Source: an uncultured Myxococcales bacterium (GTDB taxonomy: Bacteria; Myxococcota; UBA4151). Taken from it: a DNA stretch of 17,197 bases. The translations under genes and the position numbers were made by a program. Each line of letters starts with the position of its first letter. Within the stretch, counting starts at the first letter, position 1. This document shows, piece after piece, positions 2,061-13,285 of the stretch. The notes beneath the pieces were generated by a model. That model was not told where the DNA came from. It saw only the letters and a program-made list of their open reading frames with translations, and made no database searches. The stretch is taken from NCBI GenBank assembly GCA_964013405.1, contig CAXGWI010000069.1, forward strand, positions 1 to 17,197, in the 5' to 3' direction.

Positions 2061-3077
2061 TCAGCGATAGGTGATCACGACCCCAGACATATAGTAGTAG
2101 GGTTCGCCCCCTTCGCCGGACCAGGTGTAGGGTTCTAAGTCGTAACTGATCTGTGCCGTCTCGCCGACCCAGGAGCGACTGATGTCCATGTCCCAGGGAA
2201 AGACTTGGGCGCCCGGGCACCAGCCGGCCCGGTCGTACTGCCAGGTGCCCATCTGCTGCCCATCGGTGCGGGTCCGTTCACAATCGTCCCGCCAGACGCG
2301 CCGGCTAAAGACATCACCGTTGACCGTGTAGCGATGTTCTTTGGCGCAAAACTCCGCACAATTCGCAGGCCCACCGAAACCATGCCCGGTGATGAATGAG
2401 CGTAGCTTGATGCTGTGGGGAACTCCCTCGATGGGCACCGTCACGGGCGCCACTTGGCTGGCAATGGGATTATCGGCTCTGCCTGACTTGTACGAGAGAT
2501 GGGGCCAGATGGGGATGACTTGGTCCGGTTCCGGATCGGGTGGGGCGCCGCCCAAGAACTCGAAGCGAGCATCGAAGAGCCAGCCTTCCCCTTGCTCGTG
2601 ACCCGGTCCGACCCAAGTATCGATATAGACCTCAAGGGTTTGGGTCCCCGTGAGGAGGGGGCGTACATCGGTCAGGTCGGATTGCCACTCGAAGCCCACC
2701 CGGTAGGGGGTGATGAAGCGGTCGATCTCTACCGTGCGGGCCTCGTCCGTACCCGGGTTCTGCACCACGCCGAAGCTGCCGTAACGATCCCAGTGATCAC
2801 AGCGCCGGTTGGGGCAGTGCAGCCGAAAGTAGCCGGTGATCACATTATAGGTCACATCGGGACCGGGGAACTCCACCTCCACTTGAACCTTGCGACGGTT
2901 TTCCCCGCCCCCAAAGTAGATATGCTCGCTGGCAAAGGCGACGATCTCGGTATCGTCGCCCCAGGGGCGCTCTACGGGGCCTGCGTCGGCCCCTACGTCG
3001 CCTGGTGTCTGGGGGCTTGGTGTCGGACAGGCCGCAAGGCAACTGAGCGCGGCGGACACAAGGATCAAACGGGCCAT
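2061..3077 (-). CDS. Peptide-N-glycosidase F (PNGase F)-like lipoprotein
   Basis: AAGGAG RBS and lipobox LAAC. PNGase F-type motifs CDHWDRYG, EIDRFITPY, ITGHG, CAEFC and GTWQYDRAGWCPG are present. Confidence 0.85.
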   Translation of the reverse strand: MARLILVSAALSCLAACPTPSPQTPGDVGADAGPVERPWGDDTEIVAFASEHIYFGGGENRRKVQVEVEFPGPDVTYNVITGYFRLHCPNRRCDHWDRYGSFGVVQNPGTDEARTVEIDRFITPYRVGFEWQSDLTDVRPLLTGTQTLEVYIDTWVGPGHEQGEGWLFDARFEFLGGAPPDPEPDQVIPIWPHLSYKSGRADNPIASQVAPVTVPIEGVPHSIKLRSFITGHGFGGPANCAEFCAKEHRYTVNGDVFSRRVWRDDCERTRTDGQQMGTWQYDRAGWCPGAQVFPWDMDISRSWVGETAQISYDLEPYTWSGEGGEPYYYMSGVVITYR

Positions 3078-4644: not shown

Positions 4645-5223
4645 ATGCGCTGGCTTCTTTCATTGGCTCTCCTCAGCATCGGGCTCGATGCCACGGCCCA
4701 TCCGCTGTTGCCGCCGAGCACCTTGCGACCGGCCCAGAAAATCCCCCTGCCAGGGCCGTTGAAGAAGCAGCTCAACTCCATCTTAAAAAAAACCTCCTGG
4801 AAGTTGGTCGGCTATCACCTTTGGGACGAGAGTGAGGGGGAGTACGTCGAAGTTGCGAAACGCCGCGACCACATCGATGAAACGGTCGAGACTTGGCTCT
4901 TTCGCCCCGACGGCACCTTTCGACACATCATGTCTAAAGACCTCTGGTTCACGGGGAAGTGGCGAATCATCGAAGGGATCGCCGTGGGGCCCAAGGGTGG
5001 GGTGGTTGCCGCGCCAGAGCATCCATACTTCGTGATCGAGACCATGAATGTTCGCGGTTCAATTCCCAGCTTAAAGCGGAAGAGGGATTGGTTTATCGGC
5101 ACGTGGTTAGATGGCCGGCGGGGCCTGATTTTGTACTATGTGGGCCAAAAATGGCAGCGGAGTCACCGGAATAGCCTAAAGCAGGCGCACCGTTTCGAGC
5201 CTGTTCGCTATGGCGAGCGCTAA
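4645..5223 (+). CDS. Secreted hypothetical protein, possibly a lipocalin-like beta-barrel
   Basis: GGAGGA RBS at 4630-4635. Signal peptide ends in ATA-H. The pattern 'L..TSWKLVG...ETWLFRPDGTF...FTGKWRI' is typical of lipocalin-like bacterial domains. Confidence 0.7.
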   Translation: MRWLLSLALLSIGLDATAHPLLPPSTLRPAQKIPLPGPLKKQLNSILKKTSWKLVGYHLWDESEGEYVEVAKRRDHIDETVETWLFRPDGTFRHIMSKDLWFTGKWRIIEGIAVGPKGGVVAAPEHPYFVIETMNVRGSIPSLKRKRDWFIGTWLDGRRGLILYYVGQKWQRSHRNSLKQAHRFEPVRYGER

Positions 5224-5290
5224 CGAGCAACACCCCCTAAACTTTTGCTTTTCTGGACCTTTAGAACACTCCTCGTGTACTAAAAGGGCT

Positions 5291-6208
5291 ATGACGCTTA
5301 CCATCGTCATCGTTGTGGTCGTCATCGTCGTCGCAGTGGTCGCGGCCCAGTCGAGGTCTAAGTCCGGCAGCGATTCGGAATTTGCCCCCGATGTCTTTTT
5401 GTCGGCGAAACTCGCCCGGCGAAGGATCGAACAGGTTTGTCGACGCAGTGAGCACGTGCAGACAAGGCACCTTGAACAGCTTAAGGAGGCCCTTGATACG
5501 GGCCTAGAAACCTTCGCCGAGAGCCTGGAAAAGAAACTCCTCTGGATCTCGCTGGTTGCACCTTTCATTCCGTCAAAACAGAAGCAGCTCGAGGAGATGG
5601 TTGGGGCCTTGGTGCTCGAATGTTTCCCCGATGAAGCTCGCTTGTCCTCCGCCCTGCGCCCCACGGAAGAGATCGACATGGAAGTGGAGCGGAAGGTGAT
5701 TGATGCCCTGTCGAAGGCGCAGTCTTTGCTTCGGAGTCAGAATATCCCCACGGCCGGTGTTCCCAGTGCCGATGAACGGACCGTCTCGATCATCGATGAT
5801 GTGGAAGGTGGCGTGACGGCGGTGGGGCTCTATGAGGCCTGTCGCAGTGTCACCGTTGAATCCTGCCTTGAGGTGGCGGGGGTGACCGCTGACGCTCATT
5901 TTCCCGGCGGCATGTCGACCCCGGTCGCAAAGGCCGCGTTTAGTATGATGATGGGCTTAACCTTGGAGCAGGGTCAGGCAGCAGGTGTCACCAGAGAAGC
6001 TGAAAAGGTGCGCCGGGTCTTCTACGACCAACAACCCCTGAACACGCTGAAGACCAATGTCTCGGAGCGCACCCAGGAGCGGGTCGACGGCGTCCACGAG
6101 CAACTGCAAATCGTTGCAGTGCAGGCCCGTATCGCAGCGAGGAATCATTGGATGGCAACCATCGACCGTTGGGAACGGGAAACCCTCAGGAATCTCGATT
6201 CCGTCTGA
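5291..6208 (+). CDS. Hypothetical protein with N-terminal membrane anchor and a predicted alpha-helical body
   Basis: Start placed at ATG 5291 (MTLTIVIVVVVIVVAVVAA), after an AT-rich intergenic stretch. The 305-aa product has amphipathic helical character and no recognised family motif. Confidence 0.72.
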   Translation: MTLTIVIVVVVIVVAVVAAQSRSKSGSDSEFAPDVFLSAKLARRRIEQVCRRSEHVQTRHLEQLKEALDTGLETFAESLEKKLLWISLVAPFIPSKQKQLEEMVGALVLECFPDEARLSSALRPTEEIDMEVERKVIDALSKAQSLLRSQNIPTAGVPSADERTVSIIDDVEGGVTAVGLYEACRSVTVESCLEVAGVTADAHFPGGMSTPVAKAAFSMMMGLTLEQGQAAGVTREAEKVRRVFYDQQPLNTLKTNVSERTQERVDGVHEQLQIVAVQARIAARNHWMATIDRWERETLRNLDSV

Positions 6209-6220
6209 TGTCGCCGCCAC

Positions 6221-7231
6221 CTAACGCTTGAGTAGATAGAGATACTCTCGGTTGCGGGTGTGGGAAACCGTGCCCACTTTCTCCCCAGCCGGGTTGTGAA
6301 TACCGATCTGCGCGCCGACATAACGCCGGAAATCATGCTCGAAGGTCTGCAAATTGCCCCGCGTACTCAGTAGCGATTCCATCTGCTCCCGACCGATAAA
6401 GCCCTCGTCGGAAAAGCTGATCAGGATTTTGGGGGCCTGGACGGCATCGATCAGCGCTTCGAAGGCTGCAAAAGCCCTAGGCCGGGAGTTGTAGGGACTC
6501 TTCCGCTCCCGAACATCAACCCGTTTTCGAGCCACACCGTAGACCTCAGGGTCATCCCAACGGACGAGGGTCTCCCAGAGGTGATAGTTACCCAGGTACT
6601 TATGCTGATTATAGGGGGGATCGAGATAGGCCAGGTCCGCTTCAACCTGCCCGGCCGTTTCCAAGGCATCTCCATGATAGACCCGACCTGGTCCCGCTGC
6701 GGCTTGGGGGAGTAAGGAAGGGAGTCGGAGTTCGATGTCCTTGTGAGCCCGAGGAGCCCACTCCTTCAGATAGGCCATCTGGACACCGGTGGTTGAATCG
6801 ACCCGATCGGCCGCTTCCATGAGGGCCGTGAGCAGAACCGCTTCGAGGATAGGTTCGAGTTGCCAGGCCTGGATCTGATGGCGCATCGCCTCGATACGGG
6901 CGCCGTTTTTGGCTTGGAAGAAGCGGCTTTCAACACAATAGGTCTGGGTGAACTTGCCCGGTGTCCCCGGCAATGCGTTGAGCTCTTCGATCAGTCTTTT
7001 GGCCGGCGCCGCGTGGCGCTCCTCATCGGCCTCCACATAACAACGGGCTAAGGTCGTAGCATAAGCGTTAAGGTCGTTCGCGTGCACCTGATAGCCAGCG
7101 CCTTTCAGGGCATGTCCGACGCGGGCCGTCCCGGAAAACAGGTCGAGCACCGTTGCCACGCCATCTAAGGCATCCACCCGAGCAAGGATGGCTGGCAGGA
7201 GGGTGCGTTTGGAGCCGAGGTACTTGATCAC
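6221..7231 (-). CDS. N6-adenine DNA methyltransferase, D12/Dam-FokI-like class, orphan
   Basis: The start is GTG 7231 (MIKYLGSKRTLL). It has SAM-binding motif I DLFSGTARVG followed later by catalytic motif IV YLDPPY (alpha-group order). The start overlaps the upstream stop (GTGA). Confidence 0.92.
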   Translation of the reverse strand: MIKYLGSKRTLLPAILARVDALDGVATVLDLFSGTARVGHALKGAGYQVHANDLNAYATTLARCYVEADEERHAAPAKRLIEELNALPGTPGKFTQTYCVESRFFQAKNGARIEAMRHQIQAWQLEPILEAVLLTALMEAADRVDSTTGVQMAYLKEWAPRAHKDIELRLPSLLPQAAAGPGRVYHGDALETAGQVEADLAYLDPPYNQHKYLGNYHLWETLVRWDDPEVYGVARKRVDVRERKSPYNSRPRAFAAFEALIDAVQAPKILISFSDEGFIGREQMESLLSTRGNLQTFEHDFRRYVGAQIGIHNPAGEKVGTVSHTRNREYLYLLKR

Positions 7232-8154
7232 GAATTGTGTGCCTGACGGTACAGCCAGACCTGGATGCCCAGGCTCGCGAGGATCATTGGGGTCGCAATC
7301 CAACAAATCGGTGTGGGGGCAAGAAGGGAGGCGCCTACGAAGAAGCCGTGCCAGATGAGCGTTGCCGCAAGGAGGGGGCGATCCGCGGGTCCTTCGGGCA
7401 CCGGACGGGCTCGGAGGACCATCACGAAGCCAGCGATCAAGAAGAGGATCAGGATCAAACCATCGCCTAAGCCGAGGAAGCGAAATGCGTGATAGGGGAG
7501 AAAGAGCACAAAACCACCCACCAAGGTCAGTAGGGCCGTGATGCCAACCCACAGAGCCATCGATACGCCGCCAGGACGGCGCCGAGCGTCTGCCCACCGG
7601 ATGAGTACGGCGATGAGACCATGGAACAGGAACATCCAAAGTGTGGAGCTGTAGGGCACGCCGAGCCACCGACTCATGGTGGTCAAATGGGGCTTCCAGG
7701 CCCACCATGGCATGGTCGGGCCGACGAGGTCGTAGGGCGTGTACATGATGACGGCGAGGAGGCCGACGGCAACCCCTTCCAGGGCCAAAGGCAGTTGAAA
7801 GCGTTCGCCCATCTGCTGGGCCACGTAGACCACCACTTGATAGACCATACAAATGTAGAGGGGGAGCCGGTGATGATACAACATCACCGAGAACTGTTCG
7901 TGGGCGAAGTTGTCGACCGTGTTGTAGACGATCAACTCTAGGATCGTGCCGTAGACGAGAATGCACAGCCAGGCGAACATGGGCCGGGTGCGTCCCTGGC
8001 GCCAATGATGGAACCAATGGAGGCAGGTGAGCAACCAAGCGGCGCAAACAGCGCCTTCAAGAAGGCCAATATGCAGGGGGAGATCGGCCGGAGGATTGAA
8101 GTCGACCCAGGGAAGACTGCGGTCGATCTCAGGCATGCGCAGCATATCTTCCAC
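7228..8154 (-). CDS. Polytopic membrane protein, DUF7802-like (distantly CruF/carotenoid hydratase-like)
   Basis: 308 aa with about 8 hydrophobic segments. Motifs G..LE, DNFAH, RLPLYI..VY and PYDLVGP...WWAW......RWLGVPYSS recall the DUF7802 family and the two GVP-type motifs of CruF. Family call is from memory. The start could also be ATG 8145 or 8136. Confidence 0.7.
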   Translation of the reverse strand: MEDMLRMPEIDRSLPWVDFNPPADLPLHIGLLEGAVCAAWLLTCLHWFHHWRQGRTRPMFAWLCILVYGTILELIVYNTVDNFAHEQFSVMLYHHRLPLYICMVYQVVVYVAQQMGERFQLPLALEGVAVGLLAVIMYTPYDLVGPTMPWWAWKPHLTTMSRWLGVPYSSTLWMFLFHGLIAVLIRWADARRRPGGVSMALWVGITALLTLVGGFVLFLPYHAFRFLGLGDGLILILFLIAGFVMVLRARPVPEGPADRPLLAATLIWHGFFVGASLLAPTPICWIATPMILASLGIQVWLYRQAHNS

Positions 8155-8157
8155 GAC

Positions 8158-9027
8158 TCAGCCCACCACCGCTTGTTCAGGTCCTTTGGACCGGCTTCTC
8201 CGACGGGGCTCAAGGCGGGCGAGAGCCCGGGCAGAGACGGCCGCCCGGGAGTAGTCCATACGCGGGGAGCGATGGTCCTGATCCACCAGAAAGCGCTCCT
8301 CACCGTAACGCTCATCCTCCCGGCGCCAGCTGCCAAAGATCCAGTCCCAGAGGTGCATGTTCTGGGTAAAGTTCACATGAAAGTAGATATGGTGATCATC
8401 GTGAAAGGCCGCGGGGGCTTGCCAGGGAAAGACCGAATGGAAACGCACACCGCTATGATCCAGCACCGAGACCACCTGCTGGTAGATCAGGATGAGGATC
8501 ACCCCTGCTGGATGGAGCGGGAACAGAAAGATGGGCACCAGGCTAAAGAACTGGAAGGTGGCGAGCTCGACAGGATGGACGGCCAGGCTTGTAAAGGGGG
8601 AGGGCGTTCGCCAGCGATGATGAATCCGATGAATCCGGCGATAGAGCGGCCGAAGGTGCAGCGCTCGGTGCCCCCAGTAAAGGGCACAGTCGACAAGCAT
8701 AAAATAGAAGATGGTGCTGCCGATGGTATAGGCCCAGCCCCAGGTCTCCACCTCGAAGTAGAGCTGGGACCAGCCCCCGGTGCGGATATGGTACATGATG
8801 AAACCGCTGACCACGCTGGCCCAGGTCATGTTCAGTGTACCCAGGCGAATCTCTTCCCGCCGCAGGCGTGCTGGCGAAGCTCGATCCGGTTGGGTCTTCC
8901 ACTGATCGAGGGCCTCCCGGCGCCGCCGATAATATAACCATTCGATCAAATAGGATGGGCCCAGATAGAGGAAGAGGCCGCCCCCCACGGTCATCGCCAT
9001 GCATTCGCTAAGGAGGGTCCAGTCCAA
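8158..9027 (-). CDS. Sterol desaturase / fatty acid hydroxylase superfamily di-iron membrane enzyme
   Basis: His boxes YWGHRALH, IHRIHH and FHDDHH, plus PSPFTSLAVHPVE, DHSG and WDWIFGS. Start is TTG 9027 (GGGAG 11 nt upstream) or ATG 9000/8994. Confidence 0.9.
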   Translation of the reverse strand: MDWTLLSECMAMTVGGGLFLYLGPSYLIEWLYYRRRREALDQWKTQPDRASPARLRREEIRLGTLNMTWASVVSGFIMYHIRTGGWSQLYFEVETWGWAYTIGSTIFYFMLVDCALYWGHRALHLRPLYRRIHRIHHRWRTPSPFTSLAVHPVELATFQFFSLVPIFLFPLHPAGVILILIYQQVVSVLDHSGVRFHSVFPWQAPAAFHDDHHIYFHVNFTQNMHLWDWIFGSWRREDERYGEERFLVDQDHRSPRMDYSRAAVSARALARLEPRRRSRSKGPEQAVVG

Positions 9028-9074
9028 CTTGTTTTATGCTCCCGGTCGGGGGGTGCAGCCCCAAAGAGGGCTCG

Positions 9075-9083
9075 ATGTTACCA
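9075..9083 (-). promoter_or_regulatory. Possible extended -10 promoter element for the desaturase operon
   Basis: Minus-strand TGGTAACAT (TGn + TAACAT) about 50 nt upstream of the desaturase start. No clear -35 element. Confidence 0.3.
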
Positions 9084-9102
9084 CGACCTATGGCGACTCA
9101 GG

Positions 9103-10641
9103 TCAGTTGGCCGGGCGAAGGTGGAAGCCACAGCGTACCCAATGGCCGCTCACGTCGTCTTCCTGTCCCGACTTCGTCAACTTCACCACGTAGTCCTGTC
9201 CGCCTTCAATGCTGGCGTTCTGGATATAGACCATCTCGGCGCCCTCGGTATCCTGAGCGATGCGGTCGCCGCCCCCCGCAGGCCACAGCTCCGCCTTCAA
9301 GCTCCGGATCCCGCTGCCAGCCAAACGGCTGCGGCATACAACGCTGATGCGCCCCTCCGTTTCGAGGGCGCTCAGACCAAAATGGTCCACATCATCCGCA
9401 CCCAACTGGGCGAGAATGAAGCCAGACCGCCGACCGCCACCTTGGTCGGCCAGTTCGACCATTTCAGGCGTTGCGATGTCGTTGTTGGTTTCTTCTGCTG
9501 CCTCGGGAACATTGTCGCCGCGCAATCGCAGGGTCATGACATAGAAGTCATTATCGCCGGGCGGCACCGCGATGGCTGAGCCCTGGCTCGGGTGGTTCAC
9601 CCAAAGCAGATAGTCTCCGGGGGGCAAAGCCGGTTCAATCCCAGTCACTGTGCGACTGTAGCGCACCCGAGCAATGGTCCCCGTATTCGCCGCGTCGGTG
9701 ATCCAAATTCGACCGACGGTGGAGGTGGACCCGTTACCGGAGACGCCGGCGGCTTTCACGTCGACTTCGAGATGACCAAGGACCTCTTCGCCTTCGGCCG
9801 GCTCCGCCACACTAAAAGCGTAGACATCGACATCTTGGGCATCGGTGAGACCGCCCAGGATGTAGCCGGAGCCACTTGCCGTCCAGCCCAGCTCCTGGGC
9901 CGTGGCTTCGTCGTTGCCGGCCTCCATATCCACGTTCACCTGAGTGGCATCCATGTTCATGGTGGCGGCGACGACTCGGTACGTGAAGTTGGTGCCACCC
10001 CGGGGGTTCTGGTTCAGAGCCCAAGTGCTGCGGTCCTGCACTTTAAGGTAGTAGTTACCCGTGTACGGCAGGCGCAAAATCATCGAACTGTCCGCGGCAT
10101 TGCGCTCCGCCAAATTATCGTTTTCAGCCAACTGTATCTGCTCCGAGTCATAGAGCGTGATCACTGTATCGAGGAGTTCATCTTGGTCGTTGGGATTGGC
10201 CTCTGTGTAGGTCGTAATCCAGACCCCAGCCTCCCCAGCGAACTTGTAATAGTCGACGTCACCGGCCGGATCGATGACGCCGTTGAAGCCCCGGTTGATG
10301 GTGATCGTCTCAGCCGTCTCGAAGGAGTCGTTGCCATCACCCTCTAGCGTACAGTCGCTGGTGCAACCGTCCCCGTTGGTGCTGTTTCCATCATCGCATT
10401 CCTCATCGTCTTCTACGGCGCCATCACCACAGACGGCCCCCAACTCGATGCGGCAGCGGGCACTGCAGCCATCCAGATTACGTCGATTACCGTCGTCGCA
10501 TTCTTCACCGGGCTCTTGCACGTTATTGCCGCACTCAGCAGCTGGACCGGCATCACCCACCGGCTCGGGATCGGCTGGGGCCCCAGGGCATGCACATAAA
10601 ACCAACAGTGCGGCGCAAGTTACGAAAGGCTTCAAAGACAT
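9103..10641 (-). CDS. Lipoprotein with two myxococcal Cys-rich (DUF4215-type) repeats and PPC-like beta domains
   Basis: Start at ATG 10641 ([18 protein letters not shown], lipobox). It has two CGxx..EECDDGN....DGC...C repeats. These are followed by three acidic modules that each begin N(D/N)...A and contain D(V)DxY/F ([62 protein letters not shown]). Confidence 0.82.
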
Positions 10642-10652
10642 AGAATCGACAC

Positions 10653-10721
10653 CCTCGGCTGTTCTGCGCCGGTTTATAGTCGATCCAGCCGGGGGAGGAC
10701 AGCCCCCACGCACAGCCGAGG
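10653..10721 (-). promoter_or_regulatory. Inverted repeat / RNA structure between the serC stop and the downstream RBS
   Basis: Perfect 10-bp arms CCTCGGCTGT (10653-10662) and ACAGCCGAGG (10712-10721), with an internal G5/C5 hairpin (10691-10707). There is no U-tract. Confidence 0.5.
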
Positions 10722-10725
10722 CCCC

Positions 10726-11841
10726 TTAGCCGCTGTGCTTCGAAGCAAAGTCCTCGAGAAACTCGGCCAGCGCCTCGACCCAATCGAGGGGGACCGCGTT
10801 GTAGATACTTGCACGGATCCCACCGACGCTACGGTGGCCCTTCAGACCACTCATCCCTCGGGAGCCGGCTTCTTCCACCAGGCGTTGCTCCAAGGCTTCG
10901 TTGGGCAGGCGCCACACCACATTCATCGCGCTGCGATCTTGCTGTCGGACCGGGCAATGATAGAAATCCGAATGGGCTTCGATGACCCCGTAAAGGCGGG
11001 CGGCTTTGGCCTCATTCCGGGCCTTCGCGGCTGCCAAGCCGCCCCCTGACTTCAGGAGTCGAAGCACATTACGAACCATGTAGATGCTGAACGTCGGTGG
11101 GGTGTTGAGTAGACTGTTCTTTGCACCATGGGCGCTGTAGCGAAAGATGTTCGGAATCGAGCTGTTACCCGCAGCCATCCAGTCCTTGCGAAGAATCACG
11201 ACCACCACGCCGCTCGGGCCAATATTTTTCTGGGCACCGGCATACACGAGGTCAAAGCGCGAGAGGTCGGTGGGCTGCCAAAGAAAGTCGCTGCTCATGT
11301 CGCAGACGAGGGGTAAGGCTCCACAGTCTGGGTAGCGGCTGCCATAAAGTGAATCGTACTGGACGCCGTGAATGGTCTCGTTGCTGGTCACGTGAAGATA
11401 AGCGGCCCCCTCGAGGCCCTCCACCTGTTCTGGCAGCGAAGTGAAGTCGCCGGTCTCGCCACCGGGGTTCGCGAGGACTGCGCGAGCGCCCCGCCCGGCT
11501 GCCACCACCTGGGCTTCCTTAAAGGCCTTCTCGCCCCAGGCCCCCGTGACGAGGTAGGCTGCTTGACCCCCCTCAGGCAGGAAATTCATGGGCACAGTTG
11601 CAAACTGCTGCGTGGCTCCCCCCTGGAGCAGCAGCACTTGGTGCGTCTCCGGGACGGCCAACAACTCGGTGAGCAGCTCGATGGCCTCATGATGGACCCG
11701 GTCGTAGTTCGCGCCCCTATGACTCTGCTCCATGATCGACATGCCAGAGCCCTCAAAATTCAAGAGCTCATCCCGGGCAGCTTCTAAGGCTTCGACCGGT
11801 AGAGCAGCCGGTCCGGCGGAGAAGTTGTAACTACGGTTCAA
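10726..11841 (-). CDS. serC: 3-phosphoserine/phosphohydroxythreonine aminotransferase
   Basis: Motifs [52 protein letters not shown] (PLP lysine), NTPP and [18 protein letters not shown] start with a GGAGG RBS. Confidence 0.97.
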
Positions 11842-11894
11842 GGTCCAAGCCTCCCAATGCTTTCGCCTGCCTCTTGGACCGAATTGCCCCCCCC

Positions 11895-11923
11895 TTCAAG
11901 GGCTGCCTTTCTTCGGCTAGACT
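11895..11923 (+). promoter_or_regulatory. Putative sigma70-type promoter for the Cys-rich lipoprotein gene
   Basis: TTCAAG (11895-11900), a 17-nt spacer, then TAGACT (11918-11923), followed by a GGAG RBS and ATG 11945. Confidence 0.35.
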
Positions 11924-11944: not shown

Positions 11945-13285
11945 ATGCGCACTGTTTTTGCGGGAATTTGCACCCTGTTACTGCTGGCCTGTGGTGAGAC
12001 GAAGGTGGACGCACCGGGGATGGCTCCCCAAGGAAATGATGCCGGGGCTACAGTCCAAGATAGCGGCCCGGAACCCAGCGATGGCGGATCCCTCGATGGG
12101 GGTGAAGCCGTCGGGAACGCAGATGACGATGGGGGCAGAACGCCCCGTGACGCTGGGCGAGCGACCGATGGGGGCGAGCGCCCGCCACTTGAAGATGGCG
12201 GGGGCGCCAGCCATGACGGCGGCGTCATCGCCGCTCAAGACGCTGGGGCTATAGTCAGCGCTGATACCGGCGCACCAGAGGTGGTCGATGCGGGTCCTGG
12301 TCCCTGCGAGCCTGGGGAGACCTACTGCAGGGATGATCGCTTACTCCGCTGCCTTGCGGACGGAGACAGCGAGCTCATCATGGATTGTGAGTTGGAGGGC
12401 CACCATTGCTATTCGGGCGCCTGTCATCCTCGGATCTGTGGCGACGGATTCGTCGACCCCGACGAGGAATGCGACGACGGCAACGGCATCGAAACGGATG
12501 CCTGTACGAGTGCCTGCCGCCTGGCTCGCTGTGGCGATGGCCATGTCCAAGAAGGCGAGGAATGCGATGATGGGAACGAGCGGGACCAAGATTTCTGCAC
12601 CAACCGTTGCACTCGCCCCCGCTGTGGTGATGGCATTCGCCAGGCCGGCGAGGAATGCGATGACGGCAATGTCATTCCTGGCGATGCTTGTACCCACCTA
12701 TGCCGCAATGCCCGTTGTTCCGACGGTATCGTCCACGAGGATGTGGAGGCATGCGATGACGGGAACCGAATCAACGAAGACAACTGCACGAACGCCTGCC
12801 TGGAGGCCCGTTGTGGCGACCGAATTCGGGGCCCCGGCGAGGAATGCGATGATGGCAACGCTGTCGACGGCGACTGGTGTACGAATGCTTGCCAACGGGC
12901 CCGTTGTGGCGATGGCATTCCTGGGCCCGGTGAAGCCTGTGATGATGGTAATGAGGACAACGACGACGATTGCACCCAACTGTGTCGAGATGCGGCCTGT
13001 GGCGATGGCTTCATTCAGAACGATGAAATGTGCGACGACGGTAATCGGATCAACGAAGACGGTTGTACCCGTAACTGCCAAGAGGCCCGTTGTGGCGACC
13101 GGATCATCTGGCGGGGTGTGGAAGAATGCGATGATGGCAATGAGGAGCCCGGTGATGACTGCACCGATGTTTGCCGCCGATGGCGCTGTGGCGATGGGAT
13201 CATCAACGTTCGGCGGGAGGAATGCGATGACGGCAACCGCCGAGATGGGGACGGGTGCTCGTCGGTCTGCCGGCGAGAGCCTTAA
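11945..13285 (+). CDS. Lipoprotein with DxG-rich linker and nine myxococcal Cys-rich (DUF4215-type) repeats
   Basis: Lipobox LLAC, a low-complexity D/G/A/P linker, one different Cys module (CEPGETYC...C...C...C...C), then 9 tandem CGDG.....E.CDDGN....D.CT..C units running to the C-terminus. Confidence 0.9.
12437..13282 (+). repeat. Nine degenerate coding tandem repeats of about 93-99 bp (Cys-rich repeat)
   Basis: Recurrent TGTGGCGA(C/T) and GAATGCGA(T/C)GA(T/C)GG(C/G/T)AA, in frame with the 31-33-aa protein repeat. Confidence 0.9.

What the first reader, a model, noticed from the sequence alone, without database searches (positions are those of the whole stretch)
7228..9027. Sterol desaturase-family enzyme paired with a DUF7802/CruF-like membrane protein: candidate undescribed sterol/isoprenoid side-chain modification module
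Seen: the two genes are co-oriented and only 3 nt apart. The first has all three His boxes of the FAH/sterol desaturase superfamily. The second is a roughly 8-TM protein with polar residues in motif-like settings (G..LE, DNFAH, PYD..G...WW.W, GVP.SS). Established: this oxidase superfamily includes ERG3, ERG25 and Tetrahymena DES24, which is needed for phytosterol C-24 dealkylation; CruF proteins are membrane hydratases of isoprenoid double bonds; some myxobacteria make sterols. From memory and unverified: both proteins resemble uncharacterised invertebrate families rather than ERG3 (desaturase tail PWQ...FHD.HH.YFHVNF...WD...G..R..D..Y.E..F; DUF7802 in insects and nematodes). Inference: an oxidase plus an acid-catalysis membrane enzyme could desaturate or epoxidise and then hydrate or cleave a sterol side chain. 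If so, this operon would link two orphan families and might point to poorly defined steps of animal phytosterol dealkylation.
Basis: partly seen in the sequence, partly recalled or inferred. Interest (0 to 1): 0.78.

Follow-up and report, generated by a model that had tools for sequence, protein, structure and literature searches.

The report
Candidate bacterial phytosterol dealkylation gene pair
A bacterium with steroid-breakdown genes carries a widely conserved pair of membrane-protein genes, an iron oxidase and an uncharacterised DUF7802 protein that insects and nematodes also have, which likely clips the side branch off plant and algal sterols and so would point to a long-missing enzyme that animals use to turn plant sterols into cholesterol.

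Summary
Observation confirmed: a three-His-box PF04116 oxidase (9027-8158) followed by a DUF7802 protein (to 7228). The pair behaves as a unit. DUF7802 is the next gene in 55 of 60 informative metagenome loci, and both genes are missing together at the syntenic site of a congener. DUF7802 is a CruF homologue (HH 96%) with two near-invariant acidic residues, and occurs in insects, a nematode and amphioxus. The context is sterol-related. A Rieske/SCP2 gene lies nearby in 21 of 80 loci. In three loci the oxidase is fused to a DHCR24-like domain. One operon (L044) reads oxidase-DHCR24-like, DUF7802, second DHCR24-like: four activities matching the four-step phytosterol dealkylation pathway. This genome shows no sterol cyclase or DHCR24 but has steroid-catabolic clusters. 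Best reading (0.45): epoxidase plus epoxide lyase removing the C24 branch. Against it: no animal relative of the oxidase was found, DES24/ERG3 could not be compared, older work suggests a P450 lyase, and no activity is shown. Not found in print or earlier in this scan (94, 95, 139).

The parts
8158..9027 (-). Membrane di-iron oxidase, fatty acid hydroxylase/sterol desaturase superfamily (289 aa, TTG start); proposed sterol Delta24(28) epoxidase
   Evidence: PF04116 E 9e-25; family alignment; starred clade 97/87 with the DHCR24-like fusions; model pLDDT 86.7, best fold match SCS7p, weak at Z 5.7
8656..8670 (-). His box 1, HRALH (residues 120-124)
   Evidence: sequence; conservation
8617..8631 (-). 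His box 2, HRIHH (residues 133-137)
   Evidence: sequence; conservation
8389..8403 (-). His box 3, HDDHH (residues 209-213), followed by the family signature FHVN
   Evidence: invariant in 37 of 37
7228..8154 (-). DUF7802 membrane protein, CruF homologue (308 aa from GTG 8154; 304 aa from the likelier ATG 8142); proposed epoxide lyase
   Evidence: PF25085 E 1.6e-19; hhalign to PF04240 proteins 96.45%, E 1e-9, with 10 controls at 0.13% or less; model pLDDT 94.1
7936..7938 (-). Glu69 (304-aa numbering), candidate catalytic acid; aligns with a Glu in the CruF-family profile
   Evidence: E or D in 103 of 105 non-gap rows; alignment
7729..7731 (-). Asp138 of the PYD..G motif, candidate catalytic acid; aligns with the CruF-family DP motif
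   Evidence: D in 110 of 111 non-gap rows; alignment
7233..9101 (.). Extent of the two-gene cassette: the stretch with no counterpart at the syntenic site of congener G001 (336 nt there instead of 1,869)
   Evidence: flanks 4695-7232 and 9102-11906 match G001:C25:5680-8212 and 8549-11349 at 70-73%

Best explanation
The two genes form a conserved, mobile sterol-linked cassette that likely removes the C24 branch from plant and algal sterols: the di-iron oxidase would epoxidise the Delta24(28) double bond of fucosterol, isofucosterol or 24-methylenecholesterol, and the CruF-like DUF7802 protein would protonate and cleave that epoxide to give desmosterol plus a small aldehyde. Shown here: the gene pair, its conservation and joint loss, the CruF homology, the conserved acidic residues, and the sterol-type neighbours and fusions. 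Inferred: a sterol substrate, the side-chain position, and the epoxidase and lyase roles. In this genome there is no DHCR24, so the straight-chain product would feed the resident steroid-degradation clusters. In locus L044 two DHCR24-like domains would add the first step (dehydrogenation) and the last (reduction to cholesterol), as in insects and nematodes.
For: 1) Pairing: DUF7802 is adjacent in 55 of 60 loci with at least 400 nt downstream, in 43 of 48 clusters at 90% identity and in 17-19 of 22 at 70%, across oxidases 32-90% identical. It also holds in Porticoccaceae. Both genes are absent together from the syntenic site in G001. 2) Side-chain pointer: in 3 of 80 loci the oxidase is fused to a PF01565 domain that JGI names delta24-sterol reductase. 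L044 reads fusion, DUF7802, second DHCR24-like gene with abutting or overlapping stops and starts. L053 has the fusion plus a second DHCR24-like gene. The two FAD types are 34-40% identical. The window oxidase shares a starred clade with these fusions. The four parts match the dehydrogenase, epoxidase, epoxide lyase and reductase pathway set out in PMC3124498, which also proposed the second DHCR24 paralogue as the dehydrogenase. 3) Sterol context: Rieske-KshA_C(-SCP2) hits in 21 of 80 loci, 16 distinct at 90%. KshA_C genes occur in 6 of 7 pair-bearing genomes tested, against 22 of 151 and 23 of 121 overall. The own genome has FadD3-family, ChsH2-type, SCP2 and related genes. 4) Chemistry: DUF7802 is homologous to the acid-catalysis CruF family, and an FAH-type enzyme, AltSQE, epoxidises squalene (PMC8172173). 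Tetrahymena C24 de-ethylase DES24 is of the same short-spaced FAH subfamily (PMC9485055). 5) DUF7802 occurs in Timema, Uranotaenia, Callosobruchus, Daktulosphaira, Halicephalobus and Branchiostoma. None of the four insects among them is in a DHCR24-less group named in section 3.1.1 of the preprint (its Table 1 is an image and was not seen). DUF7802 is fused to an FAH domain in a diplonemid and a dinoflagellate.
Against: No activity was measured. No animal-named relative of this oxidase was retrieved, and the preprint finds no novel FAH gene in Tribolium, so the animal epoxidase may be another protein. The eukaryotic DUF7802-FAH fusions use a different FAH subfamily (48-56 bits against 277 or more). 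Older work cited in the preprint points to a P450 for epoxide cleavage in Spodoptera. The three DHCR24-like fusions lie in one clade, probably one event, and only 1 of the 3 (L044) has DUF7802 beside it. DHCR24 was not found in the own genome or five other pair-bearing genomes. Five of 60 loci lack the neighbour, including L046, a close sister of DUF-bearing L039. An actinobacterial DUF7802 relative sits by a PF10118 gene, not this oxidase. The KshA_C co-occurrence rests on two lineages, and 20 of 22 KshA_C-positive Porticoccaceae lack DUF7802. The animal sample is six named taxa and not systematic. The DHCR24 group-1/group-2 assignment is untested.
Confidence: 0.45

Rival explanations
1. It is a sterol-tailoring pair with different chemistry: the oxidase desaturates or hydroxylates the side chain or ring, and DUF7802 hydrates or isomerises the double bond as CruF does, giving 24- or 25-hydroxysterols or shifted alkenes with no C-C cleavage.
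For: CruF homology points directly to hydration. Weak lycopene-cyclase hits in 5 of 112 members. Enhygromyxa salina makes 25-hydroxycholesterol (PMC10202945). DHCR24/DWF1-type enzymes can isomerise and reduce Delta24(28). All the sterol context fits equally well.
Against: It does not explain two different DHCR24-like domains flanking DUF7802 in L044, or why sterol-auxotrophic insects and nematodes keep DUF7802.
Confidence: 0.28
2. DUF7802 is a non-catalytic sterol-binding or scaffold subunit, and the oxidase alone does the chemistry, for example C5 desaturation beside the Neverland-like C7 desaturase, or a one-enzyme DES24-type dealkylation.
For: The best fold match for the DUF7802 model is the mycobacterial Insig homologue MvINS (Z 8.0, rmsd 2.9, 135 residues; next row 5.6). 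A Rieske-SCP2 gene lies directly upstream in many loci. Five loci lack DUF7802. JGI labels many of the oxidases 'lathosterol oxidase' (automatic).
Against: Two near-invariant membrane-region carboxylates align with those of the CruF family. Z 8 for a helical bundle may be a common arrangement (note). Automatic names are not tests.
Confidence: 0.13
3. The substrate is not a sterol, but a carotenoid, another isoprenoid or a membrane lipid.
For: CruF acts on carotenoids (established; PMC4717167 seen as a search listing only). A carotenoid-type gene cluster, identified by reading the sequences and not scanned, lies about 1.6 kb from the pair in L006. The immediate neighbours in the window are unrelated to sterols.
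Against: The carotenoid neighbourhood is not kept in L004 or L005. No carotenoid gene family recurred among the neighbour clusters listed, whereas DHCR24-like, Rieske-KshA_C and SCP2 domains did.
Confidence: 0.09

Closest known systems
Phytosterol C24-dealkylation pathway of insects and C. elegans (sitosterol, fucosterol, 24,28-epoxide, desmosterol, cholesterol; PMC3124498, PMC11591786)
   Same: Four membrane steps. L044 carries four candidate activities, including two DHCR24-like paralogues. DUF7802 is present in insects and a nematode.
   Different: Only DHCR24 is identified in animals, and no bacterial version was found in the papers searched. The window genome has only the middle two candidates. 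No animal relative of this oxidase was found.
Tetrahymena DES24, C24 de-ethylase (described in PMC9485055 and PMC8172173; the primary paper PMC3067464 was not held)
   Same: Short-spaced FAH/desaturase with three His boxes, linked to sterol dealkylation.
   Different: Orthology was not tested because no sequence was available. No partner like DUF7802 is mentioned in the passages read.
CruF carotenoid 1,2-hydratase family (PF04240)
   Same: Homologous core of 143 columns with aligned Glu, Asp and GVP motifs.
   Different: 16% identity, below the Pfam cut-off. DUF7802 has its own DNF.H.Q and WW.W motifs and extra C-terminal helices, and no recurring carotenoid neighbours.
AltSQE, alternative squalene epoxidase (FAH-type; via PMC8172173)
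   Same: Precedent for isoprenoid alkene epoxidation by this superfamily.
   Different: Acts on squalene in sterol synthesis. No cyclase was found in the pair-bearing genomes tested. Not compared by sequence.
ERG3/SC5D, ERG25/SMO and CH25H sterol oxidases
   Same: PF04116 and His-box spacing.
   Different: Not compared directly. This family has its own tail (P..FHDDHH..FHVN) and a dedicated DUF7802 partner.
Actinobacterial-type steroid side-chain and C/D-ring catabolism (FadD3, ChsH2, Ltp, KshA-like)
   Same: The host genome has such clusters on contigs C45 and C17.
   Different: The pair lies apart from them. The known route for C24-branched chains is carboxylation and retro-aldol cleavage (recalled), not epoxidation.

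Membership tests
FAH/sterol desaturase superfamily (PF04116) | Pfam score above cut-off and three His boxes | tested here: met
   88 bits against 31; His boxes conserved
FAH/sterol desaturase superfamily (PF04116) | SCS7p-like membrane di-metal fold | tested here: inconclusive
   best of 48,161 chains is SCS7p, but only Z 5.7, rmsd 4.4; Foldseek found nothing at E 0.001 or below
ERG3/SC5D, ERG25, CH25H or DES24 orthologue | Groups with the characterised enzyme in a tree | not testable with these tools
   no reference sequences came from any call; the tree has none
DUF7802 (PF25085) | Pfam score above cut-off | tested here: met
   70.5 bits against 27.4, profile positions 64-209 of 425; a short-type member
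CruF (PF04240) | Pfam score above cut-off | tested here: not met
   no hit for the window protein; 4 of 112 family members hit weakly, best E 3e-5; L039 member 24 bits against 25
CruF (PF04240) | Homologous core with conserved acidic residues (works-like test) | tested here: met
   hhalign 96.45%, E 1e-9; unrelated, reversed and 8 shuffled controls 0.13% or less; E/D69 in 103 of 105, D138 in 110 of 111
CruF (PF04240) | Location in carotenoid gene clusters | tested here: not met
   no recurring carotenoid genes among neighbour clusters; one unconserved case, L006
Phytosterol C24-dealkylation pathway | Conversion of C28/C29 sterols to desmosterol via a 24,28-epoxide | not testable with these tools
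   needs an enzyme assay
Phytosterol C24-dealkylation pathway | Linked DHCR24-type reductase | tested here: inconclusive
   present in L044, L053 and L066; not found in G000, G002, G003 or G401-G403
Phytosterol C24-dealkylation pathway | Fused FAD domain is the group-2 (Y7A5A.1-like) DHCR24 paralogue | not tested
   34-40% identity between the two types fits the published group 1 vs 2 range of 34-42%, but also group 1 vs 3 at 33-42%
Phytosterol C24-dealkylation pathway | Both genes track dealkylation ability across animals | tested here: inconclusive
   DUF7802 in six named animals, with no absence data; oxidase not found in animals
De novo sterol biosynthesis cluster | Oxidosqualene cyclase in the genome | tested here: not met
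   PF13243 in 0 of 1 (94% complete) and 0 of 5; rings in 2 of 14 controls

The most novel reading that the evidence does not exclude
DUF7802 is the long-sought fucosterol-24,28-epoxide lyase of insects and nematodes. Bacteria carry the same pathway as an operon: locus L044 spells out all four steps (DHCR24-like dehydrogenase fused to a di-iron epoxidase, DUF7802 lyase, DHCR24 reductase), and the window's pair is the core C-C-cleaving half used to unbranch algal sterols before degradation.
Probability: 0.33. Interest if true: 0.95.

Novelty: new variant of a known kind. Interest (0 to 1): 0.82.

Why it matters
The steps of phytosterol dealkylation have been known since the 1970s, but a 2024 review calls DHCR24 the only confirmed reaction (PMC11591786) and a 2025 preprint says the upstream enzymes cannot yet be identified. 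These bacterial operons and fusions name concrete candidates (DUF7802 as lyase, the second DHCR24 paralogue as dehydrogenase), each testable with one expression assay. If right, this gives a first function to DUF7802 and a new C-C-cleaving activity for the CruF fold. It would also name a pathway step that PMC3124498 regards as a pest-control target, and show that bacteria can turn C28/C29 sterols into C27 sterols, which bears on sterane biomarker ratios. Even if the chemistry differs, it is an undescribed and widespread sterol-linked module.

Tried and rejected
De novo sterol synthesis: rejected, no cyclase. D12 DNA methyltransferase as a third member: its start overlaps the DUF7802 stop, but it is kept in G001 where the pair is absent, and no such family recurred among neighbours. 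Placing the oxidase against ERG3, ERG25, CH25H and DES24: no reference sequences were obtainable, and the DES24 paper was not held. PMC3124498 supplements were not available and bioRxiv supplements are closed, so sequence tables there could bear on the DHCR24 grouping. Solved structures: no sequence relative of DUF7802, and only remote FAD oxidases for the fused domain. Foldseek gave nothing significant for either model. Whole-record searches behind L044, L046, L053, L066 and L086 were not possible, so DUF7802 elsewhere in those genomes is unknown. Plasmids: no member of the oxidase family (4 distant hits) and no match for the L044 DUF7802. Viral contigs: 2 loci for the oxidase alignment; the stronger (L112) has no DUF7802-sized membrane neighbour among its listed ORFs, which were not scanned. 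Sequencing runs: only small shares. One RNA-library contig of 245 nt covers 8127-8371, which does not show transcription. My Pfam scan of the Tsukamurella DUF7802-like ORF was probably in the wrong frame (0 families), so its identity rests on tblastn (44.7%, E 4e-44). The Spearman 0.54 between oxidase and DUF7802 pairwise identities (741 non-independent pairs) is expected from linkage alone and is not used as evidence.
Full report
Observation. The window has two minus-strand ORFs at 8158-9027 (289 aa) and 7228-8154 (308 aa from GTG; 304 aa from ATG 8142, which fits homologue starts better), 3 nt apart by the GTG start. The first is PF04116 (E 9e-25) and the second PF25085 DUF7802 (E 1.6e-19); neither matched NCBIfam. 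The His boxes at 120-124, 133-137 and 209-213 are conserved in 37 homologues. The genome (3.9 Mb, 94% complete) has one DUF7802 and two PF04116 genes. It is probably a myxobacterium; this is inferred from myxobacterial repeats and the names of homologues. It is probably marine, since short pieces 99-100% identical occur in runs labelled marine metagenome, though the best run may be the source sample.

The pair is a unit. Of 80 metagenome loci fetched with the oxidase alignment, 60 have at least 400 nt after the stop codon. In 55 of these DUF7802 is the next gene, within 100 nt (54 co-oriented, 1 convergent). The 20 shorter loci were set aside; 7 of them still show the start of DUF7802. After clustering, 43 of 48 groups at 90% identity and 17 (all members) to 19 (any member) of 22 at 70% carry it, over oxidases 32-90% identical. 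The misses are L046, L053, L054, L066 and L086. The background rate is low: PF25085 is in 4 of 401 genomes of the phylum, exactly the four with a strong oxidase match (about 395 bits; two 142-bit hits fall outside the family), and in 2 of 151 Porticoccaceae, where the pair sits at about 50% identity among unrelated neighbours. In the congener G001 both flanks align while the 1,869 nt holding the two genes shrink to 336 nt. So the cassette is gained or lost whole, and the overlapping D12 methyltransferase is not part of it.

What DUF7802 is. A profile search found 513 representatives at E 0.001 or below. Of the 150 listed I looked up 15 by name. These include Timema, Uranotaenia, Callosobruchus, Daktulosphaira, Halicephalobus, Branchiostoma, Durusdinium, Yihiella and Artemidia; the Atlas also gave Nematoda and Actinomycetota clusters. 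The family profile aligns to PF04240 (CruF-family) proteins taken from 13 loci at 96.45%, E 1e-9, over 143 columns, while an unrelated membrane family, the reversed alignment and 8 shuffles score 0.13% or less. Glu69 (E/D in 103 of 105) and Asp138 (110 of 111) align with the CruF-family acids and are kept in the animal members. The model is confident (pLDDT 94.1). Its best structural match is the Insig homologue MvINS (Z 8.0), a weak lead by that tool's own note. In a diplonemid and a dinoflagellate DUF7802 is fused to a PF04116 domain, but one of another subfamily (long-branch warning).

Sterol context. A Rieske-KshA_C protein, mostly with a fused SCP2 sterol-carrier domain, is hit in 21 of 80 loci (16 distinct at 90%; some show only the SCP2 tail at a contig end), usually directly upstream. 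P450 genes lie near the oxidase in 4 loci. In L044, L053 and L066 the oxidase is fused to a PF01565 domain; JGI names the L044 protein delta24-sterol reductase (P0252), and its motif likeness to DHCR24 is my recollection. The three fusion hits are these same proteins, not extra cases. L044 continues with DUF7802 and a second DHCR24-like gene, with abutting or overlapping junctions. L053 has a convergent second DHCR24-like gene. L066 has a Rieske, a weak EBP-like gene (E 0.025), a P450 and a methyltransferase. The fused and free FAD types are 34-40% identical. The window oxidase is 38-39% identical to the fused oxidases and shares a starred 21-row clade with them (97/87). The fusions fall in one subclade, probably one event.

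The host degrades rather than makes steroids. No PF13243 was found in G000 or five other pair-bearing genomes, and no DHCR24 (only weak, partial FAD-oxidase hits). Contig C45 has two KshA_C Rieske genes, a ChsH2-type gene, SCP2, a P450, PRK07937 and PRK07798 above cut-off, and EchA19-, KstR- and HsaB-like genes below cut-off. Contig C17 has FadD3-family, PRK07831, PRK07938 and PRK08290 genes above cut-off. Reading these as the Ltp, FadD19, IpdF and EchA20 steroid genes is recalled. KshA_C is in 6 of 7 pair-bearing genomes tested (missing in G403), absent from pair-less G001, and present in 22 of 151 and 23 of 121 genomes overall. This is two lineages only, and most KshA_C genomes lack the pair, so the pair is an accessory.

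Mechanism. PMC3124498 (passages and section 23 read) gives the animal pathway as dehydrogenation, epoxidation, epoxide-lyase cleavage and DHCR24 reduction, and proposes the second DHCR24 paralogue as the dehydrogenase. L044 holds four matching parts. An FAH-type enzyme can epoxidise an isoprenoid alkene (AltSQE; PMC8172173 passages), and DES24, needed for C24 de-ethylation, is a short-spaced FAH protein (PMC9485055 passages). Epoxide cleavage needs protonation and a carbocation rearrangement (recalled), which suits a CruF-type acid. I therefore infer epoxidase plus lyase. In the window genome the two-gene form would suffice for algal sterols that already carry the Delta24(28) bond, handing an unbranched chain to the catabolic clusters. 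All enzymatic steps are inferred. No electron-donor gene was seen in the cassette.

Against. No animal-named oxidase was among the 44 and 40 hits listed (word-limited, 7,995 candidates scored in the second; most hits unnamed). Relatives were bacterial, protist-like (unnamed) or giant-virus. The preprint 10.1101/2025.04.14.648839 (abstract, passages and section 3.1.1 read) reports few arthropod FAH genes and old evidence for a P450 in epoxide cleavage. Only one locus has all four parts. An actinobacterial DUF7802 relative neighbours a PF10118 gene instead. The genome's Ltp-like genes may already handle branched chains (recalled). Hydration or isomerisation (0.28), a non-catalytic binding role (0.13) and a non-sterol substrate (0.09) remain open.

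Novelty. 'DUF7802' gave 0 papers. The search including 'PF25085', 'epoxide lyase' and 'fucosterol epoxidase' listed 23 papers, none with PF25085 and none naming such genes in title or abstract start. Searches listed no description of this pair. The library lacks most subscription journals. Passages of PMC10070321 and PMC10202945 on bacterial sterol genes do not mention it; their supplements were not read. PMC11591786 (passages) calls DHCR24 the only confirmed step. PMC8471071 (passages) adds nothing on upstream enzymes. Earlier scan notes hold no DUF7802 finding and no look-alike sequence.

Verdict. A real, widespread and, as far as these searches reach, undescribed sterol-linked two-gene module. 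C24 dealkylation is the best-supported function (0.45). Its extension to the missing animal lyase stands at about 0.33 and is directly testable. Interest 0.82.

Noticed in passing
window 6221-7231 (-): D12-class adenine DNA methyltransferase whose GTG start overlaps the DUF7802 stop (GTGA). It is kept in congener G001, where the pair is absent, so it is a bystander.
   Followed up: yes
L096 (G000:C45:848-19713) and L144 (G000:C17:758-14088): Actinobacterial-type steroid side-chain and C/D-ring degradation clusters in a small, probably myxobacterial genome; related two-Rieske clusters occur in Porticoccaceae G401 and G402.
   Followed up: partly
L066 1771-8701: Low-GC bacterial locus with a weak EBP-like gene, a Rieske-KshA_C gene, the oxidase-DHCR24-like fusion, a P450 and a methyltransferase: a larger sterol-remodelling cluster with no DUF7802 in view.
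   Followed up: partly
L039 vs L046: Sister oxidases share TetR and P450 neighbours, but DUF7802 lies between oxidase and P450 only in L039: a natural single-gene difference.
   Followed up: no
L042 4798-5922 (-): DUF7802 is inverted (convergent) yet still abuts the oxidase.
   Followed up: no
L037, L045, L081 and others, just upstream of the oxidase: Rieske-KshA_C oxygenase of about 500 aa fused to a C-terminal SCP2 domain.
   Followed up: partly
proteins P0172, P0188: Unnamed, eukaryote-like DUF7802 proteins fused to N-terminal GFA (formaldehyde-activating family) domains. Of interest because dealkylation of C28 sterols would release formaldehyde (inference).
   Followed up: no
proteins P0111, P0204: Timema gene models join DUF7802 to a long Cys-rich N-terminus, probably merged gene models.
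   Followed up: no
L112 5049-5990 (+): A giant-virus contig carries a distant member of the oxidase family next to a capsid-like gene (named by reading, not scanned).
   Followed up: partly
L114 6065-8120: In Tsukamurella a DUF7802 relative follows a PF10118 'metal-dependent hydrolase' gene and a TetR gene: a different partner in actinobacteria.
   Followed up: partly
protein P0010 (AYM54387.1): The named myxobacterium Phaselicystis flava has a member of the oxidase family and could be a test organism; its neighbours were not seen.
   Followed up: no
window 2061-3077 (-), 9103-10713 (-), 11945-13285 (+): A PNGase F-like protein and two DUF4215 cysteine-rich repeat proteins.
   Followed up: no
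L088 1840-3813 (+): DUF7802 with a C-terminal extension of about 300 aa and no further Pfam hit.
   Followed up: no
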